From a virus (taxonomy: Duplodnaviria > Heunggongvirae > Uroviricota > Caudoviricetes), in the IMG/VR virus record IMGVR_UViG_2718218102_000002: 42,917 nt of DNA. The stretch is one strand, 5' to 3'. Shown one piece after another: positions 1,635 to 38,331 of the stretch. How positions within the stretch are numbered: position 1 is the first letter of the stretch; the number at the start of each line of letters is the position of its first letter. Position numbers and translations under genes: made by a program. The notes beneath the pieces are model-generated. The model saw only the letters and a list, made by a program, of their open reading frames with translations, was not told the origin of the DNA and ran no database searches.

Positions 1635-2216
1635 TTACCCTATAGGTGCTACTGGCCACTCAATATCCGGTACTACTGATGTATCAACACGGTTCAGCAA
1701 CACCCGATACTTTTTCCAGGCTTCCAGCAACAAGGTTTCTTCCTCCGTTGCGATCTCCAGATCTACAGCATCCTGAAGCGGCGCTATATGCTCACTGGCT
1801 ACCTGCATCAGGCTGTTTTTTGTTTCTTCCGCCTCCCGGATCCGGAACAGTTTTTCTGCTTCCGTATCCTTCACCCAGGCTGTACCGTTCCACTTCTGAA
1901 ACTCCCCTTCCGGGGATAACCAGGTGACATTTTCCGGTAATGAGCCGAGTTCAGAAATAAATAACGCGTCGCCGGAAGCCACGTCATAGACCGTTTTTCC
2001 CCGATGGTCTTCAACGAGATGCCACGATGCCTCATCACTGTTGAAAACAGCCACGAAGCCAGCCGGAATATCTGGCGGTGCAATATCGGTACTGTTTGCT
2101 GGCAGACCTGTATGAGGCGGAATGTATGCGTCACCTTCACCAATAAATTCATTAGTTCCGGCCAGCAGATTATAAATTTTTATGGTCCGTGGTTGTTCAC
2201 TCATTCTGAATGCCAT
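1635..2216 (-). CDS. tfa: Tail fiber assembly protein Tfa (lambda Tfa-like)
   Basis: 193-aa ORF starting [20 protein letters not shown], directly downstream of stf with a 1-nt TAATG stop/start overlap. Confidence 0.9.
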
Positions 2217-28106: not shown

Positions 28107-28532
28107 AAGCTGTGTGACGAAGTAACCACTCTTAACAGCATAACCAATTTTTTACGTACGTAAACTACTAAATGATATTTGTGAGAATGCCACCGAGTGT
28201 TCAAAACACCACCACAAATGCATAAGAAAACTTCAACAAATAACCAGTTAATAATTTCCGATGTTATTTTTAGTTTGTTTAAATTAAGCTAAAGAATTAT
28301 AGAGCACTTATAAATAAGTGCCATTAATATAAATTAGCTAATAGATTTATTTTTGTTCAGACAAGAGCCATGAATAGGATTAGATAGAAAAGGTTCCGAT
28401 AAAAATAGAGATCTACTTCACAAATTAAATGAGAAACTAAAACTTACATCTTGAAATAATCACATTGATTAGATGAATATTTATCGCGCAGTGACATCAT
28501 TTTTTAATAATAGTTCAAAAAAAGGGCGTACA

Positions 28533-29615
28533 ATGAAAAAATTAACAGTGGCAATTTCTGCTGTAGCTGCATCAGTACTGATGGCGATGTCTGCTCAGGC
28601 AGCTGAAATTTATAATAAAGACAGTAACAAGCTGGATCTATACGGGAAAGTTAATGCCAAGCACTACTTCTCCTCTAATGATGCAGATGATGGTGATACT
28701 ACTTATGCCCGTCTTGGCTTCAAAGGTGAAACCCAAATCAACGATCAACTGACTGGTTTCGGTCAGTGGGAATATGAATTCAAAGGCAACCGTGCTGAAT
28801 CTCAAGGTTCTTCCAAAGACAAAACCCGTCTTGCATTTGCAGGCCTGAAATTTGGTGATTACGGCTCAATCGATTACGGCCGTAACTACGGTGTAGCATA
28901 CGACATCGGTGCGTGGACTGACGTTCTGCCAGAATTCGGTGGTGATACCTGGACCCAAACAGATGTGTTCATGACTGGTCGCACTACTGGTGTTGCAACT
29001 TATCGTAACAACGACTTCTTTGGTCTGGTCGATGGCCTGAACTTTGCTGCTCAGTATCAGGGTAAAAATGACCGCACTGACGTAACTGAAGCCAATGGTG
29101 ATGGTTTCGGTTTCTCCACTACTTATGAGTATGAAGGATTCGGCGTGGGTGCAACCTATGCTAAATCAGATCGCACTGACGGTCAGGTCGCCTATGGTAA
29201 GAGCAAATTCAATGCCTCCGGCAAAAATGCGGAAGTATGGGCTGCAGGCCTGAAATATGATGCGAACAATATCTATCTGGCTACCACATATTCTGAAACT
29301 CAGAATATGACCGTTTTTGGTAATAACCATATTGCAAACAAAGCACAAAACTTTGAAGCAGTAGCACAATATCAGTTTGACTTCGGTCTGCGTCCATCTG
29401 TTGCTTACCTTCAGTCAAAAGGTAAAGACCTTGGTGTTCATGGTGACCGAGACTTAGTCAAGTATGTCGATGTCGGTGCTACTTACTACTTTAATAAAAA
29501 CATGTCCACTTTTGTTGATTACAAAATCAACTTAATTGACGATAGTAAGTTTACCAAAACAGCTGGTATTGATACCGACGACATCGTCGCTGTAGGTCTG
29601 GTTTATCAGTTCTAA
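28533..29615 (+). CDS. Outer membrane porin, OmpC/OmpF/NmpC (Lc-like) family
   Basis: Start set at MKKLTVAIS with a cleavable signal peptide; classic porin N-terminus [16 protein letters not shown] and C-terminal VGLVYQF. Confidence 0.85.
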
Positions 29616-31944: not shown

Positions 31945-32322
31945 ATGACCAACAAAGAAAACAAAGATAAATATATTAACAAGTTCAAGAAAGAGCTTTC
32001 AAAATATATACAACCAACTGCTGGAGTGGACATTCAATTATTTAACTCTAAGGATGGTGGTGGTGTAATTAAAGCCACTTTGAATAGAAGTGGAAAAAGA
32101 AAATCATCTATTGCAGGTAATTTTACTAAATTAGGTGAGGCAATTACCTCGAGTGGGCAGAGGGTTTTTGGTGGTGATCTATCAAATGTAAATTTTTACG
32201 GAACAAATACGATTTTTGATGGAGATACAATATTTTTAATTAAATCACCTGATTCAGAGGAGTGGTCATCACAAAAAGCTTCCAAAGACGTAGAGGGAAT
32301 CGTATTTGGAGGGAAAAAATGA
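31945..32322 (+). CDS. Hypothetical soluble protein (AT-rich opposite-strand cassette, gene 1)
   Basis: 125 aa, Lys/Gly-rich, no predicted TM segment; very low GC compared with flanking phage genes. Confidence 0.5.
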   Translation: MTNKENKDKYINKFKKELSKYIQPTAGVDIQLFNSKDGGGVIKATLNRSGKRKSSIAGNFTKLGEAITSSGQRVFGGDLSNVNFYGTNTIFDGDTIFLIKSPDSEEWSSQKASKDVEGIVFGGKK

Positions 32323-32747
32323 TTAACATTACTACTAAGGATGGCACTCAAGTCAGTGGTGAAGTAAGAGATCTAGTAATTCTTCTTGAAACTGATGGAA
32401 AAACGGTGTCTGATTATTTGCAGCCAATCCCTCCCAAAAAAGATACACACTGGAGCATGATTTTCATTCCGGTAGCAATTTATATACTACTTAATCTTGT
32501 ATACATTATTGCTCACCCATTATTTCCTGAAAAATATCTAAAAACATCAACATCTATATTTCTATTCATTTCCTTCATATTAAGTGCAATAGTAGCATAT
32601 TTTGTTTTCCATAAGCATAAATCTGCCACTCTATCCATATGCAGCTTAGTGTTCTTAGTGTTAATTGTAGGTGCTAACGTAGGGTTTATCAGTTACAGCG
32701 ACCTAACACAAAAAGCGACGCAAAAATTAGATAGTTTGTCTAAATAA
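32319..32747 (+). CDS. Hypothetical membrane protein, about 3 TM helices (AT-rich cassette, gene 2)
   Basis: Start set at MINITTKDG, with GGAGGG Shine-Dalgarno and ATGA overlap with the gene 1 stop. Soluble N-terminal ~45 aa, then three hydrophobic segments. Confidence 0.5.
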   Translation: MINITTKDGTQVSGEVRDLVILLETDGKTVSDYLQPIPPKKDTHWSMIFIPVAIYILLNLVYIIAHPLFPEKYLKTSTSIFLFISFILSAIVAYFVFHKHKSATLSICSLVFLVLIVGANVGFISYSDLTQKATQKLDSLSK

Positions 32748-34551: not shown

Positions 34552-35097
34552 TCATATTGCCCCCAGCATGGTGGTGACCATCGCCATCAATGGACCAGCC
34601 AGATCCGGGTCCACACGAAACATCGACACAATGCCTTCACTCATCTCCTTCAGTTTCTGGTGGCGTGGTGCGTTGAGAATGACAGCCTGTTTTGCCTCAC
34701 TGAGTTCCTTTTCCATTTCAGCCAGCCGAGCCATGTAGCTATCCTGCTCAACCAGGTGGCCGCGATATTCCAGCGGTAGTACCGCCAGAATTGCCGGGGT
34801 CAGTTCACGCACGTTATTTCGGTATTTTTCAGAATCGAATTTGTTATCGAGAAAGCGGAACAGCTTCTGGCGTGCACGGCTGACATCATCAGGGAAATCG
34901 ATGGTGCCGCCGCCCTGCTCCCGATACTCATTCACAATGAGTGCGGCAACAACATCCTGATTATCTGCAGCCGACCAGGCGCGAACGGCATCACGGATTT
35001 TTTCGTGGCCTGGCGCCTGTTTTGTTTGAGAACGATTTATCACCGCAGTCGGGCTAAATCCGCTAGTCTGTTGGTATGTAAGTGGTTGCATAGTCAT
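34552..35097 (-). CDS. Hypothetical regulator in the cII position (CII-like or YdaT-like); function uncertain
   Basis: 181-aa ORF between cro and O; no family confidently recognised by eye. Confidence 0.4.
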   Translation of the reverse strand: MTMQPLTYQQTSGFSPTAVINRSQTKQAPGHEKIRDAVRAWSAADNQDVVAALIVNEYREQGGGTIDFPDDVSRARQKLFRFLDNKFDSEKYRNNVRELTPAILAVLPLEYRGHLVEQDSYMARLAEMEKELSEAKQAVILNAPRHQKLKEMSEGIVSMFRVDPDLAGPLMAMVTTMLGAI

Positions 35098-35121
35098 TGC
35101 CTTATCAGTTAACGCCGCAGT

Positions 35122-35349
35122 TTAGGCGGCAGAATTACTCGCGTTAAACAATGGTGCGAGGTCGGGACGAATATCTGCTGGTTTAATCTTTCCACCAGTG
35201 GCTGAGACAATTTTCATTACATAGCGGGCATCAATTCCGCCACCGTGTAGCCAACGCCAAACTGTGGGTTGGGCTACACCGCATAGATCTGCCAGTCGTT
35301 TTTGACTACCTGTAATACTGATTGCGAGTTGAATGGTTTGATTTGTCAT
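35122..35349 (-). CDS. cro: Cro-like HTH repressor
   Basis: 75 aa from the ATG at 35349 (track start is a TTG). HTH motif QKRLADLCGVAQPTVWRW; divergent from cI across the operator region. Confidence 0.7.
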   Translation of the reverse strand: MTNQTIQLAISITGSQKRLADLCGVAQPTVWRWLHGGGIDARYVMKIVSATGGKIKPADIRPDLAPLFNASNSAA

Positions 35350-35459
35350 TATCAATTCCTATTGGTATTGCAATGAATAAATAATAGCAATGCGTATTAA
35401 TCCAAGCAATAGCAAAACGTGTTTTGACCATCAATACGCAAGCGTATAAATTAAAACTT
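35350..35459. promoter_or_regulatory. Right operator/promoter region (oR with divergent pR and pRM-like promoters)
   Basis: Three ATAGCAAT/ACCAATAG-type sites spaced about 22-23 bp apart (35359-35375, 35381-35398, 35404-35418). Plus strand: TTGACC (35424-35429) and TATAAA (35445-35450) just before the cI ATG. Minus strand: TTGCTT-17nt-TATTAT upstream of cro. Confidence 0.5.
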
Positions 35460-36152
35460 ATGAAAAAAGAAACTCTTGCTGATCGCTTAAACCTAGCGAT
35501 GGAACAATCTGGAATGTCTCAAGGCGCTCTTGCAAAGGCGTCTGGCGTAGCTCAACCCACAATCTGGAGACTGACAAGCGGCAACGCGCGCGGCTCAACA
35601 AAAATTGTTGAAATAGCTAATGCATTGGGTGTTCGAACAGAATGGCTCTCATCAGGCATAGGCCCGATGAGAAATGACGGTCAACAATCAGGGAAGCCTG
35701 CTGTCAGCTATTCCAAATACTTTAAAATTGACGTTCTTGATATAGAAGTGAGTGCCGGGCCGGGAGTCATCAACCGTGAGTTTGTAGAAGTTCTACGCTC
35801 GGTTGAGTACTCGTTTGACGATGCTCGTCACATGTTCGATGGTAGGAAGGCAGAAAATATCCGCATCATTAACGTACGCGGTGACAGCATGTCAGGAACG
35901 ATTGAACCTGGTGATCTTCTATTCGTTGATATCACGGTTAAATCTTTCGACGGTGATGGTATCTATGCGTTTCTGTACGACGACACAGCCCATGTAAAGC
36001 GCCTGCAAATGATGAAGGATAAGCTGCTGGTTATCTCTGATAACAAAAGCTACTCACCGTGGGACCCGATCGAGAAAGATGAGATGAACCGGGTATTTAT
36101 CTTCGGGAAAGTTATTGGGAGCATGCCGCAGACGTATAGGAAGCATGGATAG
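35460..36152 (+). CDS. cI: CI-type repressor (N-terminal HTH plus C-terminal S24 LexA-like autopeptidase)
   Basis: HTH motif QGALAKASGVAQPTIWRL; GDSM and a downstream Lys (HVKRL) typical of the S24 Ser-Lys dyad. The ATG at 35460 is preferred over the track TTG at 35424. Confidence 0.85.
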   Translation: MKKETLADRLNLAMEQSGMSQGALAKASGVAQPTIWRLTSGNARGSTKIVEIANALGVRTEWLSSGIGPMRNDGQQSGKPAVSYSKYFKIDVLDIEVSAGPGVINREFVEVLRSVEYSFDDARHMFDGRKAENIRIINVRGDSMSGTIEPGDLLFVDITVKSFDGDGIYAFLYDDTAHVKRLQMMKDKLLVISDNKSYSPWDPIEKDEMNRVFIFGKVIGSMPQTYRKHG

Positions 36153-36232
36153 TACCAATTAAAAATTATCAACCGGGCATTGTGCTCATTCAGTAAAACA
36201 ACTTAATTATTCATTTTAGAATGGAGAACTTA

Positions 36233-37294
36233 ATGGATACTTTAAAATATGAGAAATTCTCTGATTTTGATCACAATGACCCATTTTTTGACTCTTTAAA
36301 AAAAGATTATAAAGAGTTTCCTCTTTGGTTAGAAAAAAAAGCCAGAGAAGGAGAATCAGCTTATGTGCTCTATGATGACAAGCATAAAATCGAAGGTTTT
36401 ATGTATCTAAAAGAAAATGATGATGCAAATGACATTAATCCAGCGCTCCCACCAGGACGTCATCTAAAGATAGGAACATTCAAATTTGAATCTAAAGGCA
36501 CCCTTCGCGGACAACGATTTCTAAAAAAAGCGTTTGACCATGCATTTTCATCAAAATCTGATGATATTTATGTTACTGTTTTCGACAAACACGTCCATCT
36601 AATAAAACTTTTCCAAACGTACGGATTTTACATTCATGGTGAAAAAGAAACACATAACGGGAAAGAGTTTGTATATGCGAGGTCTTTGCATGAGCCTTAT
36701 GGTGATATTTTATTAGATTACCCTCGAATAATGACATCAAGGGCCAACAAATATTTACTGGCGATTTATCCCGAATATCACACTAGACTATTCCCTGATT
36801 CAAAACTTGTAAATGAATCACCAGATATTGTCAAAGATATATCCCATGCTAACAGCATTCATAAAATTTACATATGTGGAATGCGTTCTGTGATGGGAAT
36901 GAAAAGAGGAGATATCATTGTCATCTATAGAACCGGAGACAAAAAAGGGCCAGCTCGCTATCGTTCTGTAGCCAGTACATTATGTGTAGTTGAGAGCGTA
37001 AAAAATATTTCTGAATTTTTAAGCGAAGATAGTTTTGTAGACTATTGTATTCGTTTTAGCGTATTTTCTGAAGATGAACTCAGAAAAATCTATAAAGAAC
37101 GTCGATACCCTTTCATTATAAGATTCACATACAATCTGTCTTTGCCAAAGAGACCCAATCGTGCTATTTTAATAGATCATGTGGGGCTAAATGGTTCGCG
37201 TGCATTCCGATGGAGTCACTTTAAACTCACAAATGAGCAGTTCTTAAAGATCATCGAGTTAGGCAAGATAAATGAAAGTTTTATTATCCATTAA
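36233..37294 (+). CDS. Hypothetical two-domain protein: possible GNAT-like N-terminal half and ASCH/PUA-like C-terminal half
   Basis: 353 aa from the second ATG (GGAG Shine-Dalgarno). N-terminal segment LRGQRFLKKAF…IYVTVFD…LFQTYGFYIHG loosely resembles GNAT motifs A/B. Domain calls are by eye and tentative. Confidence 0.55.
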   Translation: MDTLKYEKFSDFDHNDPFFDSLKKDYKEFPLWLEKKAREGESAYVLYDDKHKIEGFMYLKENDDANDINPALPPGRHLKIGTFKFESKGTLRGQRFLKKAFDHAFSSKSDDIYVTVFDKHVHLIKLFQTYGFYIHGEKETHNGKEFVYARSLHEPYGDILLDYPRIMTSRANKYLLAIYPEYHTRLFPDSKLVNESPDIVKDISHANSIHKIYICGMRSVMGMKRGDIIVIYRTGDKKGPARYRSVASTLCVVESVKNISEFLSEDSFVDYCIRFSVFSEDELRKIYKERRYPFIIRFTYNLSLPKRPNRAILIDHVGLNGSRAFRWSHFKLTNEQFLKIIELGKINESFIIH

Positions 37295-37649
37295 GCCTGA
37301 GTTTGCAGAAAAAATATTGAACGGAACAAAGCGGTTCGAGTTTCGTAAAGGTATATTCAAAAATCCGCAAATTAGCACCGTTGTTATTTATGCCACGATG
37401 CCATTAGGTAAAGTTGTTGGTCAATTCCGTATTGAATCAATACTAAGTGACGAACCGGAATCTCTTTGGAAAAAGACGGAAAAGCACGCAGGTATTTCTA
37501 AGCAATTTTATGACTCATATTATTCAGGTAGAGAAAAGGCCTACGCAATAAAAATTGGTGAAGTGGAAAGATATAAAGAACCAATTCCTATCTCTGCTCT
37601 AGGTAGTAATATTAAGCCACCACAATCATATCTTTACCTACCTGCGTAA
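37272..37649 (+). CDS. ASCH-domain protein (PUA-like fold)
   Basis: 125 aa; N-terminus MKVLLSIKPEFAEKILNGTKRFEFRK is typical of ASCH proteins. Overlaps the upstream gene by 23 nt. Confidence 0.65.
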   Translation: MKVLLSIKPEFAEKILNGTKRFEFRKGIFKNPQISTVVIYATMPLGKVVGQFRIESILSDEPESLWKKTEKHAGISKQFYDSYYSGREKAYAIKIGEVERYKEPIPISALGSNIKPPQSYLYLPA

Positions 37650-37653
37650 GAAT

Positions 37654-37680
37654 CCCGGCCACCGTGCCGGGTTTTCTTTT
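37654..37680 (+). terminator. Intrinsic terminator closing the cI operon
   Basis: cccggc-caccgt-gccggg followed by ttttctttt, 5 nt after the ASCH gene stop. Confidence 0.65.
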
Positions 37681-37764
37681 GTCCCCTCATCACACAAACC
37701 GTTCGAAAAACCACCACATCCTCCCTTCAGTTATCGCTATGCGATGCAAGTCACAAAATTAATT

Positions 37765-37870
37765 CTTTTTGCTATCAAACATTTAATATCAAAACACATC
37801 AACCAATAGCAATAAGTATTGATATCACCAATAGCAATAGCTATTATCACCATATCGCAACAACACAACG
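37765..37870. promoter_or_regulatory. Putative left operator region (oL) with repeated CCAATAGCAAT motifs
   Basis: CCAATAGCAAT at 37803-37813 and 37829-37839, plus ATAGC-related sequence at 37769-37781; same motif family as the oR sites. Confidence 0.4.
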
Positions 37871-37920
37871 ATACGGCAACCACCTGATTCACCGTTGCGA
37901 TGACCGCTTAGATCCGCAGT

Positions 37921-38331
37921 TTGAATTTCAGCAGGCTTCGGGGAGTGCGAGGGGTGAAACGGACGCGTGAACGTCGGTGTGACCAGCTGAAATTAACTCA
38001 ACATTTCATACCTCAGTCGCTTCAACGAGGCGGTTTAGTTATGACAACCGGCGGCCATCCACCGCCTGAATACGCGCAGAAGTCTCTATATGTTCAGCAG
38101 CCCAGCTTACGGGCAGGAGTTTTTATGGTTCATCAACATTACGGAACACAGACCGTTAATCGCGGTGCGGTCATGCCAGGAATGCTGGTCAAACACAAAG
38201 ATGGTACCTGGACTGCATCAGCTAATTTACGCGGACGGCTTTATCTGCATCGCGGCATCGAGCGCACTTATACCCGTGACTTGCTCGTGGAAGTTTTTCT
38301 CGACGGACGCGGCAACGGCCTGAATCACTAA
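37921..38331 (+). CDS. Hypothetical protein in the N position; Arg-rich N-terminal stretch; start codon uncertain
   Basis: Track ORF starts with TTG; internal ATGs at 38041 (MTTGG…) and 38128 (MVHQH…, AGGAG Shine-Dalgarno). The stretch [10 protein letters not shown] loosely resembles an N-type arginine-rich motif. Higher GC than neighbours. Confidence 0.3.

What the first reader, a model, noticed from the sequence alone, without database searches (positions are those of the whole stretch)
36221..37680. AT-rich two-gene cassette in the rexAB slot after cI: GNAT-like/ASCH fusion plus standalone ASCH protein
Directly downstream of the cI repressor, on the same strand and closed by a clean intrinsic terminator (37654-37680), sits a compact pair: a 353-aa protein and an overlapping 125-aa ASCH-domain protein. 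This is the position lambda uses for rexA-rexB, a recognised site for prophage-encoded phage exclusion expressed from the lysogen. The region is much more AT-rich than the phage around it, which suggests horizontal acquisition. By eye the large protein's N-terminal half looks GNAT-like and its C-terminal half ASCH/PUA-like. ASCH proteins include N4-acetylcytidine amidohydrolases, so an acetyltransferase paired with an ASCH deacetylase/reader could act as a toxin-antitoxin or abortive-infection module on RNA or nucleotides. I do not recognise this pairing as a described defence system.
Basis: partly seen in the sequence, partly recalled or inferred. Interest (0 to 1): 0.9.

Follow-up and report, generated by a model that had tools for sequence, protein, structure and literature searches.

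The report
Known GNAT-EVE/ASCH prophage cassette (GevTA)
However, the pair is already catalogued: it is PADLOC defence candidate PDC-M11, it was predicted as a toxin-antitoxin operon in 2013 and 2020, and GenBank phage records name it GevT/GevA. It is therefore a known cargo of a prophage defence hotspot whose biochemistry is still open.

Summary
A 1.5-kb, 36% GC cargo (window 36153-37653) lies between the cI stop codon and an intrinsic terminator. It encodes a 353/357-aa protein and an overlapping 125-aa ASCH protein.

The novelty claim fails:
- Both proteins hit PADLOC candidate PDC-M11A/B at E 2e-133 and 7e-52.
- GNAT-EVE plus ASCH operons in prophages were described by Bell et al. 2020, citing Iyer et al. 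2013.
- A 99.3% identical copy in phage PhiR47_2 is annotated GevT toxin / GevA antitoxin.
- 275 of 5426 complete E. coli genomes carry the cassette.

The pair is obligate: 80 of 80 species-level loci have both genes, and 77 keep a conserved overlap of about 20 nt. It also sits in the lysogeny modules of P2/186-like and filamentous prophages. Sibling lambdoid phages hold other candidate systems (PDC-M63, PDC-M66) in the same slot.

Best reading: a repressor-co-transcribed toxin-antidote module for exclusion or addiction. A writer/eraser mechanism is plausible but untested.

The parts
35460..36152 (+). cI-type repressor (230 aa; HTH plus S24 peptidase). It is the first gene of the presumed lysogenic transcript that carries the cassette.
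   Evidence: Pfam Peptidase_S24 1.5e-18 and HTH_3 1.2e-6. RefSeq annotation in the 99.97% identical UPEC 536 prophage.
35355..35425 (.). oR / pRM-pR region between the divergent cro and cI genes, with operator-like repeats (AATAGCAAT core at 35383).
   Evidence: Sequence read. The motif occurs 3 times in the window (0.47 expected), and only at oR and oL.
36153..37653 (+). Variable cargo segment (1501 nt, about 35% GC), bounded exactly by the cI stop codon and the backbone terminator.
   Evidence: Alignments with PhiR30_1, PhiR5_1 and PhiR68_2 lose homology at 36152 and regain it at 37654. GC values.
36233..37294 (+). Large protein (353 aa; 357 aa if started at 36221). It has an N-terminal GNAT fold (about residues 1-155) and a C-terminal basic PUA-like ASCH/EVE domain (about residues 170-353). 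It corresponds to PDC-M11A and to 'GevT'.
37272..37649 (+). Small ASCH protein (125 aa, pI 9.55) whose start overlaps the end of the large gene by 23 nt. It corresponds to PDC-M11B and to 'GevA'.
   Evidence: Pfam ASCH 2.5e-8. PADLOC PDC-M11B 6.8e-52. ZmASCH 5GUQ/5GUS at E 8e-16. G18-K20-E23-R25, Y40 and Q118-S119 are invariant or nearly so in 34 homologs.
37654..37680 (+). Intrinsic terminator that closes the lysogenic transcript. It is phage backbone, shared by sibling phages that carry different cargos.
   Evidence: Scan hit. Fold dG -15.2 kcal/mol, z -3.4. Invariant in 5 phages with 4 different cargos.
37800..37847 (+). oL / pL: two operator-like sites (cores at 37805 and 37830) overlapping a promoter-like site (TTGATA-17-TATTAT). 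This segment is immunity-specific.
   Evidence: It is replaced by a different sequence in PhiR47_2 and in O157:H7 3-5-1, which also carry a different cro/oR/cI N-terminus.

Best explanation
This is the GNAT-EVE + ASCH two-gene module, known as PADLOC candidate PDC-M11 and annotated GevT/GevA in phage PhiR47_2. Here it is carried as horizontally acquired cargo in the cI-to-terminator hotspot of a lambdoid prophage essentially identical to one in E. coli UPEC 536.

Shown:
- The two genes are an obligate, translationally overlapped pair that is conserved across many phyla.
- The large protein combines a GNAT fold with a basic PUA-like (ASCH/EVE) domain.
- The small protein is a ZmASCH-type ASCH protein whose catalytic-cleft residues are invariant.
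- The pair lies with no intervening terminator behind cI and in front of a backbone terminator.
- The same slot in sibling phages holds other defence-candidate pairs.

Inferred:
- The pair is co-transcribed with cI from pRM/pRE in lysogens, as rexAB is in lambda.
- The large protein is a toxin that uses its PUA-like domain to dock on RNA (most likely tRNA) or DNA and transfers an acyl group from acyl-CoA.
- The small ASCH protein is its antidote, most likely acting as an enzyme on the same nucleic acid. It could remove the acyl mark, which would make the system work like DarT/DarG.
- The biological role is exclusion or abortive infection of superinfecting phages, possibly combined with prophage addiction.
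For: Identity:
- PADLOC PDC-M11A 2e-133 and PDC-M11B 7e-52.
- 99.3-99.9% nucleotide identity to phages 4A7, Lambda_4C10, D2, 1W, 3W, IdasGreatGrand and PhiR47_2. In PhiR47_2 the genes are annotated GevT toxin / GevA antitoxin.
- Bell et al. 2020 (PMC7641849) describe GNAT-EVE fusions with an adjacent ASCH gene, common in prophages of beta- and gamma-proteobacteria, and predict them to be toxin-antitoxin systems.

Fold:

Obligate pair:
- 80 of 80 loci carry both genes. In 77 of 80 the small gene overlaps the end of the large gene by a conserved ~20 nt.

Antidote likely enzymatic:
- The ASCH GxKxxExR motif and the equivalents of ZmASCH Tyr47, Gln127 and Ser128 are invariant.
- The small protein is as conserved across phyla (44-77% identity) as the large one. 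This is unusual for a purely sequestering antitoxin.
- ZmASCH binds and cleaves ssRNA (PMC5615036).
- A preprint reports that all 19 ASCH proteins tested, ZmASCH among them, deacetylate tRNA ac4C in vitro.

Lysogenic expression and defence context:
- No terminator was found between cI and the pair.
- In Klebsiella P2/186-like prophages the pair sits between cI and int. In Vibrio filamentous prophages it sits next to an AAA_17 gene.
- Repressors lie upstream and integrases downstream in several of the 80 loci, with occasional RM, SoFic or Kiwa neighbours.
- Sibling phages hold PDC-M63 and PDC-M66 (HipA_2 + DUF3037) in the same slot.

Mobility:
- Cassette GC is below flank GC in 72 of 73 loci.
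- The same cassette is flanked by two different immunity types.
Against: - No experimental result on toxicity, rescue or phage resistance could be read. The paper behind the PhiR phage records (Brenes & Laub 2025) is not held. No open paper contains 'GevT'.
- PDC-M11 is only a candidate system.
- Pfam GNAT models do not hit the large protein.
- The region corresponding to GNAT motif A reads K-G-T-L-R-G-Q-R-F-L rather than Q/RxxGxG/A. The position aligned to the usual general-acid Tyr is a nearly invariant Phe, although Y130 three residues later is invariant. Acetyltransferase activity is therefore not assured.
- ZmASCH did not hydrolyse free ac4C and did not lower tRNA ac4C in vivo.
- Most of the 80 species-level loci are not recognisably next to phage or defence genes.
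- Co-transcription with cI is inferred only from the absence of a predicted terminator or promoter.
Confidence: 0.6

Rival explanations
1. Classical sequestering (type II-like) toxin-antitoxin pair. The small ASCH protein neutralises the GNAT-EVE toxin by binding it, perhaps by pairing with or mimicking its PUA-like domain. It may also autoregulate. No enzymatic reversal is involved.
Against: The catalytic-cleft residues of the small protein are invariant across phyla, and its overall conservation equals that of the toxin. That is not what rapidly co-evolving binder antitoxins usually show. No DNA-binding domain is present in this version.
Confidence: 0.2
2. The roles are reversed or shared. 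The small ASCH protein is the effector (an ssRNA ribonuclease like ZmASCH), and the GNAT-EVE protein is the sensor or regulator that restrains or activates it.
For: ZmASCH, the closest solved homolog, cleaves ssRNA in a Mg-dependent manner, and its key residues Tyr47, Gln127 and Ser128 are conserved here.
Against: The depositors of PhiR47_2 label the large protein the toxin and the small one the antitoxin. GNAT domains are the usual toxins in such pairs (Bell et al.). The ZmASCH RNase activity is weak in vitro biochemistry without a known physiological role.
Confidence: 0.08
3. The pair is not a defence system. It is a phage-benefit nucleic-acid modification module that acetylates a base in DNA or RNA to protect the phage or host genome from restriction, or to reprogramme translation, with ASCH as reader or editor.
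For: According to Bell et al., Iyer et al. 2013 proposed DNA-base acetylation. Bell et al. themselves suggest that GNAT-EVE could protect phages against host RM. ASCH-like folds can act on modified DNA bases, as in the BapA 5hmC glycosylase preprint.
Against: The pair sits in the lysogenic operon behind the repressor, not among early lytic genes. It is a PADLOC defence-island candidate. It shares its slot with toxin-antitoxin-like and defence-candidate pairs. It also occurs in chromosomal loci without phage genes.
Confidence: 0.07
4. A pure addiction (post-segregational killing) module that stabilises the prophage, with no effect on incoming phages.
For: The toxin-antitoxin annotation. The frequent position next to integrases and repressors of integrated elements. 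The family-wide low GC typical of selfish mobile cargo.
Against: The slot is the one lambda uses for rexAB exclusion (established knowledge), and sibling phages carry defence candidates there. PADLOC candidates are chosen for defence association. Addiction and defence are not mutually exclusive.
Confidence: 0.1

Closest known systems
PADLOC PDC-M11 (phage defence candidate, two genes A/B)
   Same: Both proteins match the PDC-M11A and PDC-M11B models end to end (2e-133 over 6-356 of 357; 7e-52 over 1-123 of 125). They are adjacent and on the same strand.
   Different: Nothing at sequence level: this is a member. PDC-M11 is only a candidate, and I found no open report of its activity.
GevT/GevA of Escherichia phage PhiR47_2 (GenBank PV340567.1), from the temperate phage panel that Saxton et al. 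attribute to Brenes & Laub 2025
   Same: 99.3% nucleotide identity over cI end, both genes and terminator, in the same slot and gene order.
   Different: The flanking immunity determinants differ (cro, oR, cI N-terminus, oL). The basis for the toxin and antitoxin labels could not be read.
(PIN)-GNAT-EVE + ASCH operons (Iyer et al. 2013; Bell, Wolf & Koonin 2020, PMC7641849)
   Same: A GNAT domain fused to a C-terminal PUA-like domain, an adjacent ASCH gene, prophage location in gamma-proteobacteria, and an optional AAA_17 partner (seen here in Vibrio).
Lambda RexA/RexB
   Same: The same genomic position (behind cI, before oL/pL, closed by a terminator) and the presumed co-transcription with the repressor in lysogens. 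Both are two-gene cargos.
   Different: No homology: neither protein gave a RexA or RexB hit in Pfam or PADLOC. RexB is a membrane protein, whereas these two have soluble-enzyme folds.
DarT/DarG
   Same: A working analogy only. The toxin writes a covalent mark on nucleic acid, the downstream antitoxin is an enzyme that erases it, and the toxin gene comes first.
   Different: No homology (no DarT or DarG hit in PADLOC). The chemistry would be acylation rather than ADP-ribosylation. Nothing has been demonstrated for this pair.
GNAT toxins TacT/AtaT/ItaT/KacT (which acetylate aminoacyl-tRNA)
   Different: No Pfam acetyltransferase hit. Motif A is non-canonical and Phe occupies the usual Tyr position. 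The protein carries a fused PUA-like domain. The partner is a downstream ASCH protein rather than an upstream RHH/DUF1778 antitoxin.
ZmASCH (PDB 5GUQ) and other ASCH proteins (YqfB, EOLA1, TRIP4)
   Same: The small protein aligns over its full length with ZmASCH (E 8e-16). It shares the GKER-type octapeptide and the equivalents of Tyr47, Gln127 and Ser128.
   Different: The ZmASCH entries are deposited as 'Helix-turn-helix domain-containing protein', and Bell et al. describe HTH-ASCH fusions mainly in alpha-proteobacteria. The equivalent of Lys53 is not conserved here. YqfB-type enzymes have GK[T/S]R and act on the free nucleoside.

Membership tests
PADLOC PDC-M11 | Protein matching the PDC-M11A model | tested here: met
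   PDLC04419 E 2.1e-133, residues 6-356 against profile 10-356/357.
PADLOC PDC-M11 | Adjacent protein matching the PDC-M11B model | tested here: met
   PDLC04425 E 6.8e-52, residues 1-123. The genes overlap by 23 nt on the same strand.
PADLOC PDC-M11 | Demonstrated anti-phage activity | not testable with these tools
   It is a candidate system only. The one open paper that mentions it merely lists it in a genome.
GNAT-EVE + ASCH operon (Bell et al. 2020) | N-terminal GNAT-like domain | tested here: met
GNAT-EVE + ASCH operon (Bell et al. 2020) | C-terminal EVE / PUA-like domain fused to the GNAT | tested here: met
GNAT-EVE + ASCH operon (Bell et al. 2020) | Separate ASCH gene in the same operon | tested here: met
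   Pfam ASCH 2.5e-8. Present in 80 of 80 related loci.
GevTA (PV340567.1) | Near-identity to the named genes in the same context | tested here: met
   99.3% identity over 1651 nt, with cI upstream and kil/gam/bet downstream.
GevTA (PV340567.1) | Large protein toxic, small protein neutralising | not testable with these tools
   Known only from the depositors' annotation. The source paper is not held.
GNAT aminoacyl-tRNA acetylating toxins (TacT/AtaT) | Canonical acetyl-CoA motif Q/RxxGxG/A and catalytic Tyr in motif B | tested here: inconclusive
   The family-invariant G89, T90, R92, G93 and R95 lie at the beta4-alpha3 junction, but the two canonical Gly positions are not obvious. The Tyr aligned in PaiA-type enzymes is F127 here, and Y130 is invariant.
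GNAT aminoacyl-tRNA acetylating toxins (TacT/AtaT) | Cognate upstream RHH/DUF1778-type antitoxin | tested here: not met
   The partner is a downstream ASCH protein.
RexAB | Homology to RexA and RexB | tested here: not met
   No Rex family appears among the Pfam or PADLOC hits. Only the genomic position is shared.
YqfB-type ac4C amidohydrolases | ASCH octapeptide of the GK[T/S]R type | tested here: not met
   The motif is G18-x-K20-x-x-E23-x-R25 (GKER type, as in ZmASCH) and is invariant in 34 homologs.
ZmASCH-like ASCH proteins | Full-length sequence homology and conserved cleft residues | tested here: met
   E 8e-16 to 5GUQ/5GUS over residues 3-123. Y40, R25, Q118 and S119 correspond to Tyr47, Arg32, Gln127 and Ser128.

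The most novel reading that the evidence does not exclude
The pair is a reversible nucleic-acid acylation immune module. The GNAT-EVE toxin would write an acetyl mark on tRNA, another RNA, or DNA that it recognises through its PUA-like domain. The ASCH antidote would continuously erase that mark. Phage infection would tip the balance and cause translation or replication arrest. This would be an acetylation counterpart of DarTG, and the first physiological context for ASCH 'eraser' activity in bacteria.
Probability: 0.25. Interest if true: 0.7.

Novelty: already known. Interest (0 to 1): 0.3.

Why it matters
As a discovery it adds little. The exact cassette is in PADLOC, in the comparative-genomics literature, in named GenBank phage records, and in 5% of complete E. 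coli genomes, including UPEC 536, ST131 and O157:H7 strains.

Its value is as a well-delimited example in three respects:
- It shows the cI-to-terminator slot of this lambdoid group as a swap site with sharp borders. The site holds at least four unrelated two-gene cargos, three of them PADLOC candidates.
- The pair is strikingly conserved and obligate across phyla, and the antidote looks catalytic.
- Together these features make the writer/eraser hypothesis cleanly testable.

If that mechanism were proven, it would link RNA acetylation biology (ac4C erasers) to phage defence.

Tried and rejected
- Pfam and NCBIfam on the large protein gave no significant family. The only hits were weak ones to PaiA and PseH at E about 0.02. 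A PDB sequence search gave only E 0.15 to spermidine acetyltransferases.
- A profile of the C-domain against PDB sequences found nothing. hhalign of the C-domain against the small ASCH family gave only 25% probability. The relationship therefore rests on structure.
- Literature searches for GevT, GevA, GevTA, Gev and GNAT-EVE found no open paper that describes the named system. Brenes & Laub 2025 and Iyer et al. 2013 are not held. Papers citing Brenes & Laub gave no details.
- I tested whether the PhiR68_2 cargo (341 + 149 aa, also overlapping) or the 355-aa gene next to the pair in Klebsiella are divergent relatives. They are not (hhalign prob <1%; no PADLOC or Pfam hits).
- Promoter scanning inside the AT-rich cassette found sites at 37142 and 37260 upstream of the small gene. 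The total number of sites equals the shuffle expectation (8 against 8.9), so there is no evidence for an internal promoter.
- The Rfam scan found no RNA family in or near the cassette.
Full report
**1. What is in the sequence**

Window 36221-37680 contains two same-strand ORFs. The first runs 36221-37294 (357 aa). That product is also what the protein collection holds as a 100% identical cluster of 620 members. The second ORF runs 37272-37649 (125 aa) and starts 23 nt before the stop codon of the first.

Directly upstream is a cI-type repressor at 35460-36152, with HTH plus Peptidase_S24 domains. It is divergent from cro, followed by a YdaT-like gene annotated cII in the PhiR records, then O and P. 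No terminator-like site lies between cI and the pair.

The hairpin at 37654-37671 has six G-C pairs and is followed by TTTTCTTTTG. It folds at -15.2 kcal/mol with z -3.4.

The cassette is 35.8% GC in a 50.7% GC window, and it is the lowest-GC 1460-nt stretch of the window.

**2. The slot**

The 9-mer AATAGCAAT occurs three times in the window, against 0.47 expected. One copy is between cro and cI (35383). Two copies lie just past the terminator (37805, 37830), where they overlap a TTGATA-17-TATTAT promoter-like site. These are the expected oR and oL/pL. The pair therefore lies inside the immunity region, where lambda has rexA-rexB (established knowledge of lambda).

The window is 99.97% identical over 8.5 kb to a prophage of E. 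coli UPEC 536.

Aligning the window with sibling phages of the PhiR panel gives sharp borders. Homology stops at the cI stop codon (36152) and resumes at the first base of the terminator stem (37654). The cargo is therefore 36153-37653, and the terminator belongs to the phage backbone.

In that same slot the sibling phages carry different pairs:
- PhiR30_1 carries DUF6932 plus a 310-aa protein, which is PADLOC PDC-M63A/B.
- PhiR5_1 carries HipA_2 plus DUF3037, annotated HipA toxin / HipD antitoxin, which is PDC-M66A/B.
- PhiR68_2 carries an unrelated 341 + 149 aa pair.

Conversely, the same cassette is found with a different cro/oR/cI N-terminus and a different oL in PhiR47_2 and in an O157:H7 strain. 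The slot is thus a cargo-exchange hotspot.

**3. What the proteins are**

Pfam finds nothing for the large protein. PADLOC gives PDC-M11A at 2e-133, and for the small protein PDC-M11B at 7e-52. In PHROGs the large protein matches phrog_6345 (unknown function), and its N-terminal half matches an 'acetyltransferase' phrog at 4e-24. NCBI names many homologs N-acetyltransferase.

The C-domain is basic (pI 9.66).

The small protein is Pfam ASCH (2.5e-8). It aligns end to end with ZmASCH (E 8e-16) and is basic (pI 9.55). It keeps the ASCH octapeptide as G18-x-K20-x-x-E23-x-R25, plus Y40 and Q118-S119. These are invariant or nearly so in 34 homologs from many phyla. They correspond to ZmASCH Arg32, Tyr47, Gln127 and Ser128, residues implicated in RNA binding and cleavage (PMC5615036).

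One caveat concerns the GNAT domain. The segment at the beta4-alpha3 junction (K-G-T-L-R-G-Q-R-F-L) does not show the canonical Q/RxxGxG/A pattern, even though G89, T90, R92, G93 and R95 are invariant or nearly so. The position aligned with the general-acid Tyr of PaiA-type enzymes is a nearly invariant Phe, with an invariant Tyr three residues later. Catalytic competence is not established.

**4. Distribution and linkage**

- The cassette is present at >=99% identity, as one chromosomal copy, in 275 of 5426 complete E. coli genomes. It is also present in eight phage records.
- A profile search of 1.84 billion representatives finds 1864 clusters at E<=1e-3 and 379 at E<=1e-30. They fall into three length classes: about 350, about 500 and about 620 aa. 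The longer classes carry N-terminal extensions. Bell et al. describe PIN-GNAT-EVE forms.
- In one genome per species, 215 loci encode a relative. The best 80 span Gamma-, Beta-, Alpha- and Delta-proteobacteria, Bacteroidota, Bacillota, Verrucomicrobia, Acidobacteria and Campylobacterota, at 45-74% identity.
- All 80 also encode the small ASCH protein. In 77 it follows on the same strand with the same ~20-nt overlap. In three Vibrionaceae loci it is nearby on the opposite strand.
- Cassette GC is below flank GC in 72 of 73 loci, by 10 points on average.

Contexts:
- Lambdoid prophages in E. coli and Pantoea: cI, then the pair, then an N peptide gene in Pantoea.
- Klebsiella P2/186-like prophages: cI, then an unknown 355-aa gene, then the pair, then int.
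- Vibrio filamentous prophages: after Zot, with a third AAA_17/18 gene.
- Among the two nearest upstream ORFs of the 80 loci, 6 are S24 repressors, 4 are 186-type CI repressors and 5 are AAA_17. Downstream, 6 are integrases and 5 are AAA_17. A few are RM, SoFic or Kiwa components. Most neighbours are unremarkable.

**5. What was already known**

Bell, Wolf and Koonin 2020 (PMC7641849) describe a distinct EVE cluster fused to GNAT. [quoted passage not shown] They note that GNAT-EVE without PIN is commonly located within prophages of beta- and gamma-proteobacteria, and that the systems are probably toxin-antitoxin systems. They credit Iyer et al. 2013 with the first description.

PADLOC-DB v2 lists the pair as candidate PDC-M11. 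A 2026 preprint lists PDC-M11 among the 'phage defense candidate systems' of an O157:H7 strain.

GenBank PV340567.1 (phage PhiR47_2) annotates the 99.3% identical genes as 'GevT toxin' and 'GevA antitoxin'. This phage belongs to the panel of temperate lambda relatives that Saxton et al. cite to Brenes & Laub 2025. I could not read that paper and found no open text containing the names. I therefore treat the labels as the depositors' annotation, not as data.

**6. Mechanism**

Firm points: this is an obligate, co-translated pair. One partner is a nucleic-acid-docking GNAT-fold protein. The other is an ASCH protein with a conserved catalytic cleft. The pair is placed where it would be transcribed with the repressor in lysogens.

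My best reading is a toxin-antidote module serving exclusion or abortive infection, and possibly prophage addiction.

I favour an enzymatic antidote, for two reasons:
- The small protein is as conserved as the large one across phyla, and its cleft residues are invariant.
- ZmASCH-type proteins bind and cleave ssRNA, and a preprint reports that they remove ac4C from tRNA in vitro.

This would make the system work like DarTG: the writer is the toxin and the eraser is the antitoxin. It is inference. ZmASCH was inactive on free ac4C and had no effect in vivo, and the GNAT motifs are atypical.

The rivals are listed in the report sections: a sequestering antitoxin, ASCH as the RNase effector, a phage-benefit modification system (Bell et al.; Iyer et al.), and pure addiction. 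An ASCH-like 5hmC DNA glycosylase that defends against T-even phages (preprint) shows that DNA rather than RNA could be the target.

**7. Verdict**

The finding is real and well described, but it is not new. It is a textbook-position cargo that is already catalogued, computationally described and named. Interest is low to moderate, and it rests on the untested biochemistry.

Noticed in passing
window 36152/36153 and 37653/37654; L096, L097, L098: The segment between the cI stop codon and the backbone terminator is a cargo-exchange hotspot with base-precise borders. Sibling phages carry PDC-M63 (DUF6932 + 310 aa), PDC-M66 (HipA_2 + DUF3037, annotated HipA/HipD), or an unknown 341 + 149 aa overlapping pair in the same place.
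   Followed up: yes
window 35093-35700 and 37760-37860 vs L001, L003: The same cassette is flanked by a different immunity type (cro, oR, cI N-terminal domain and oL all replaced) in PhiR47_2 and in E. coli O157:H7 3-5-1. The cI C-terminal half stays about 97% identical.
   Followed up: partly
window 31945-32747 (+): A second AT-rich pair (GC 0.32-0.37) lies on the strand opposite to the replication genes, between P and ninB. It encodes a 125-aa protein and an overlapping ~160-aa protein with a weak, sub-threshold match to a 7TM family. Neither hits PADLOC, and neither has a significant Pfam hit. It may be another moron.
   Followed up: partly
window 37848-38331: No N-type antiterminator gene lies between the pL-like promoter and kil (KilR, 38125-38331), whereas the Pantoea relative L005 has an N peptide gene there. 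The 136-aa ORF at 37921-38331 has no Pfam hit, and Rfam finds no RNA family in the region.
   Followed up: partly
window 28473-29615 (+): An OmpC/NmpC-like porin gene (380 aa with a signal peptide) lies in a low-GC stretch of the prophage.
   Followed up: no
window 1675-1873 (-): Rfam IS009 RNA match: 221 bits against a gathering score of 117, full length.
   Followed up: no
L086-L090 3909-4976: In Klebsiella P2/186-like prophages, a 355-aa gene with no Pfam or PADLOC hit and no relation to the large protein sits between cI and the GNAT-EVE/ASCH pair, ahead of int.
   Followed up: partly
L091-L095 6444-6953; also 10 of the 80 genome loci: A third gene encoding an AAA_17/AAA_18 P-loop protein (weak PADLOC VakA match, 1e-8) accompanies the pair in Vibrio filamentous prophages and elsewhere, either upstream or downstream.
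   Followed up: partly
L016, L020, L025: In three Vibrionaceae loci the ASCH gene is not overlapped. It lies 0.4-2.6 kb downstream on the opposite strand. These are the only exceptions to the conserved overlap among 80 loci.
   Followed up: no
window 37272-37649: The small protein matches the C-terminal 'unknown domain' of NCBIfam NF008917, a ribosomal protein L22 fusion protein (E 2.8e-15, profile positions 191-310 of 311). This hints at a link between this ASCH subfamily and the ribosome or RNA.
   Followed up: no
L005-L084: Cassette GC is lower than flank GC in 72 of 73 species-level loci (mean difference -10 points, host GC range 27-67%). The AT bias is a property of the family, not only of the E. 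coli copy.
   Followed up: yes
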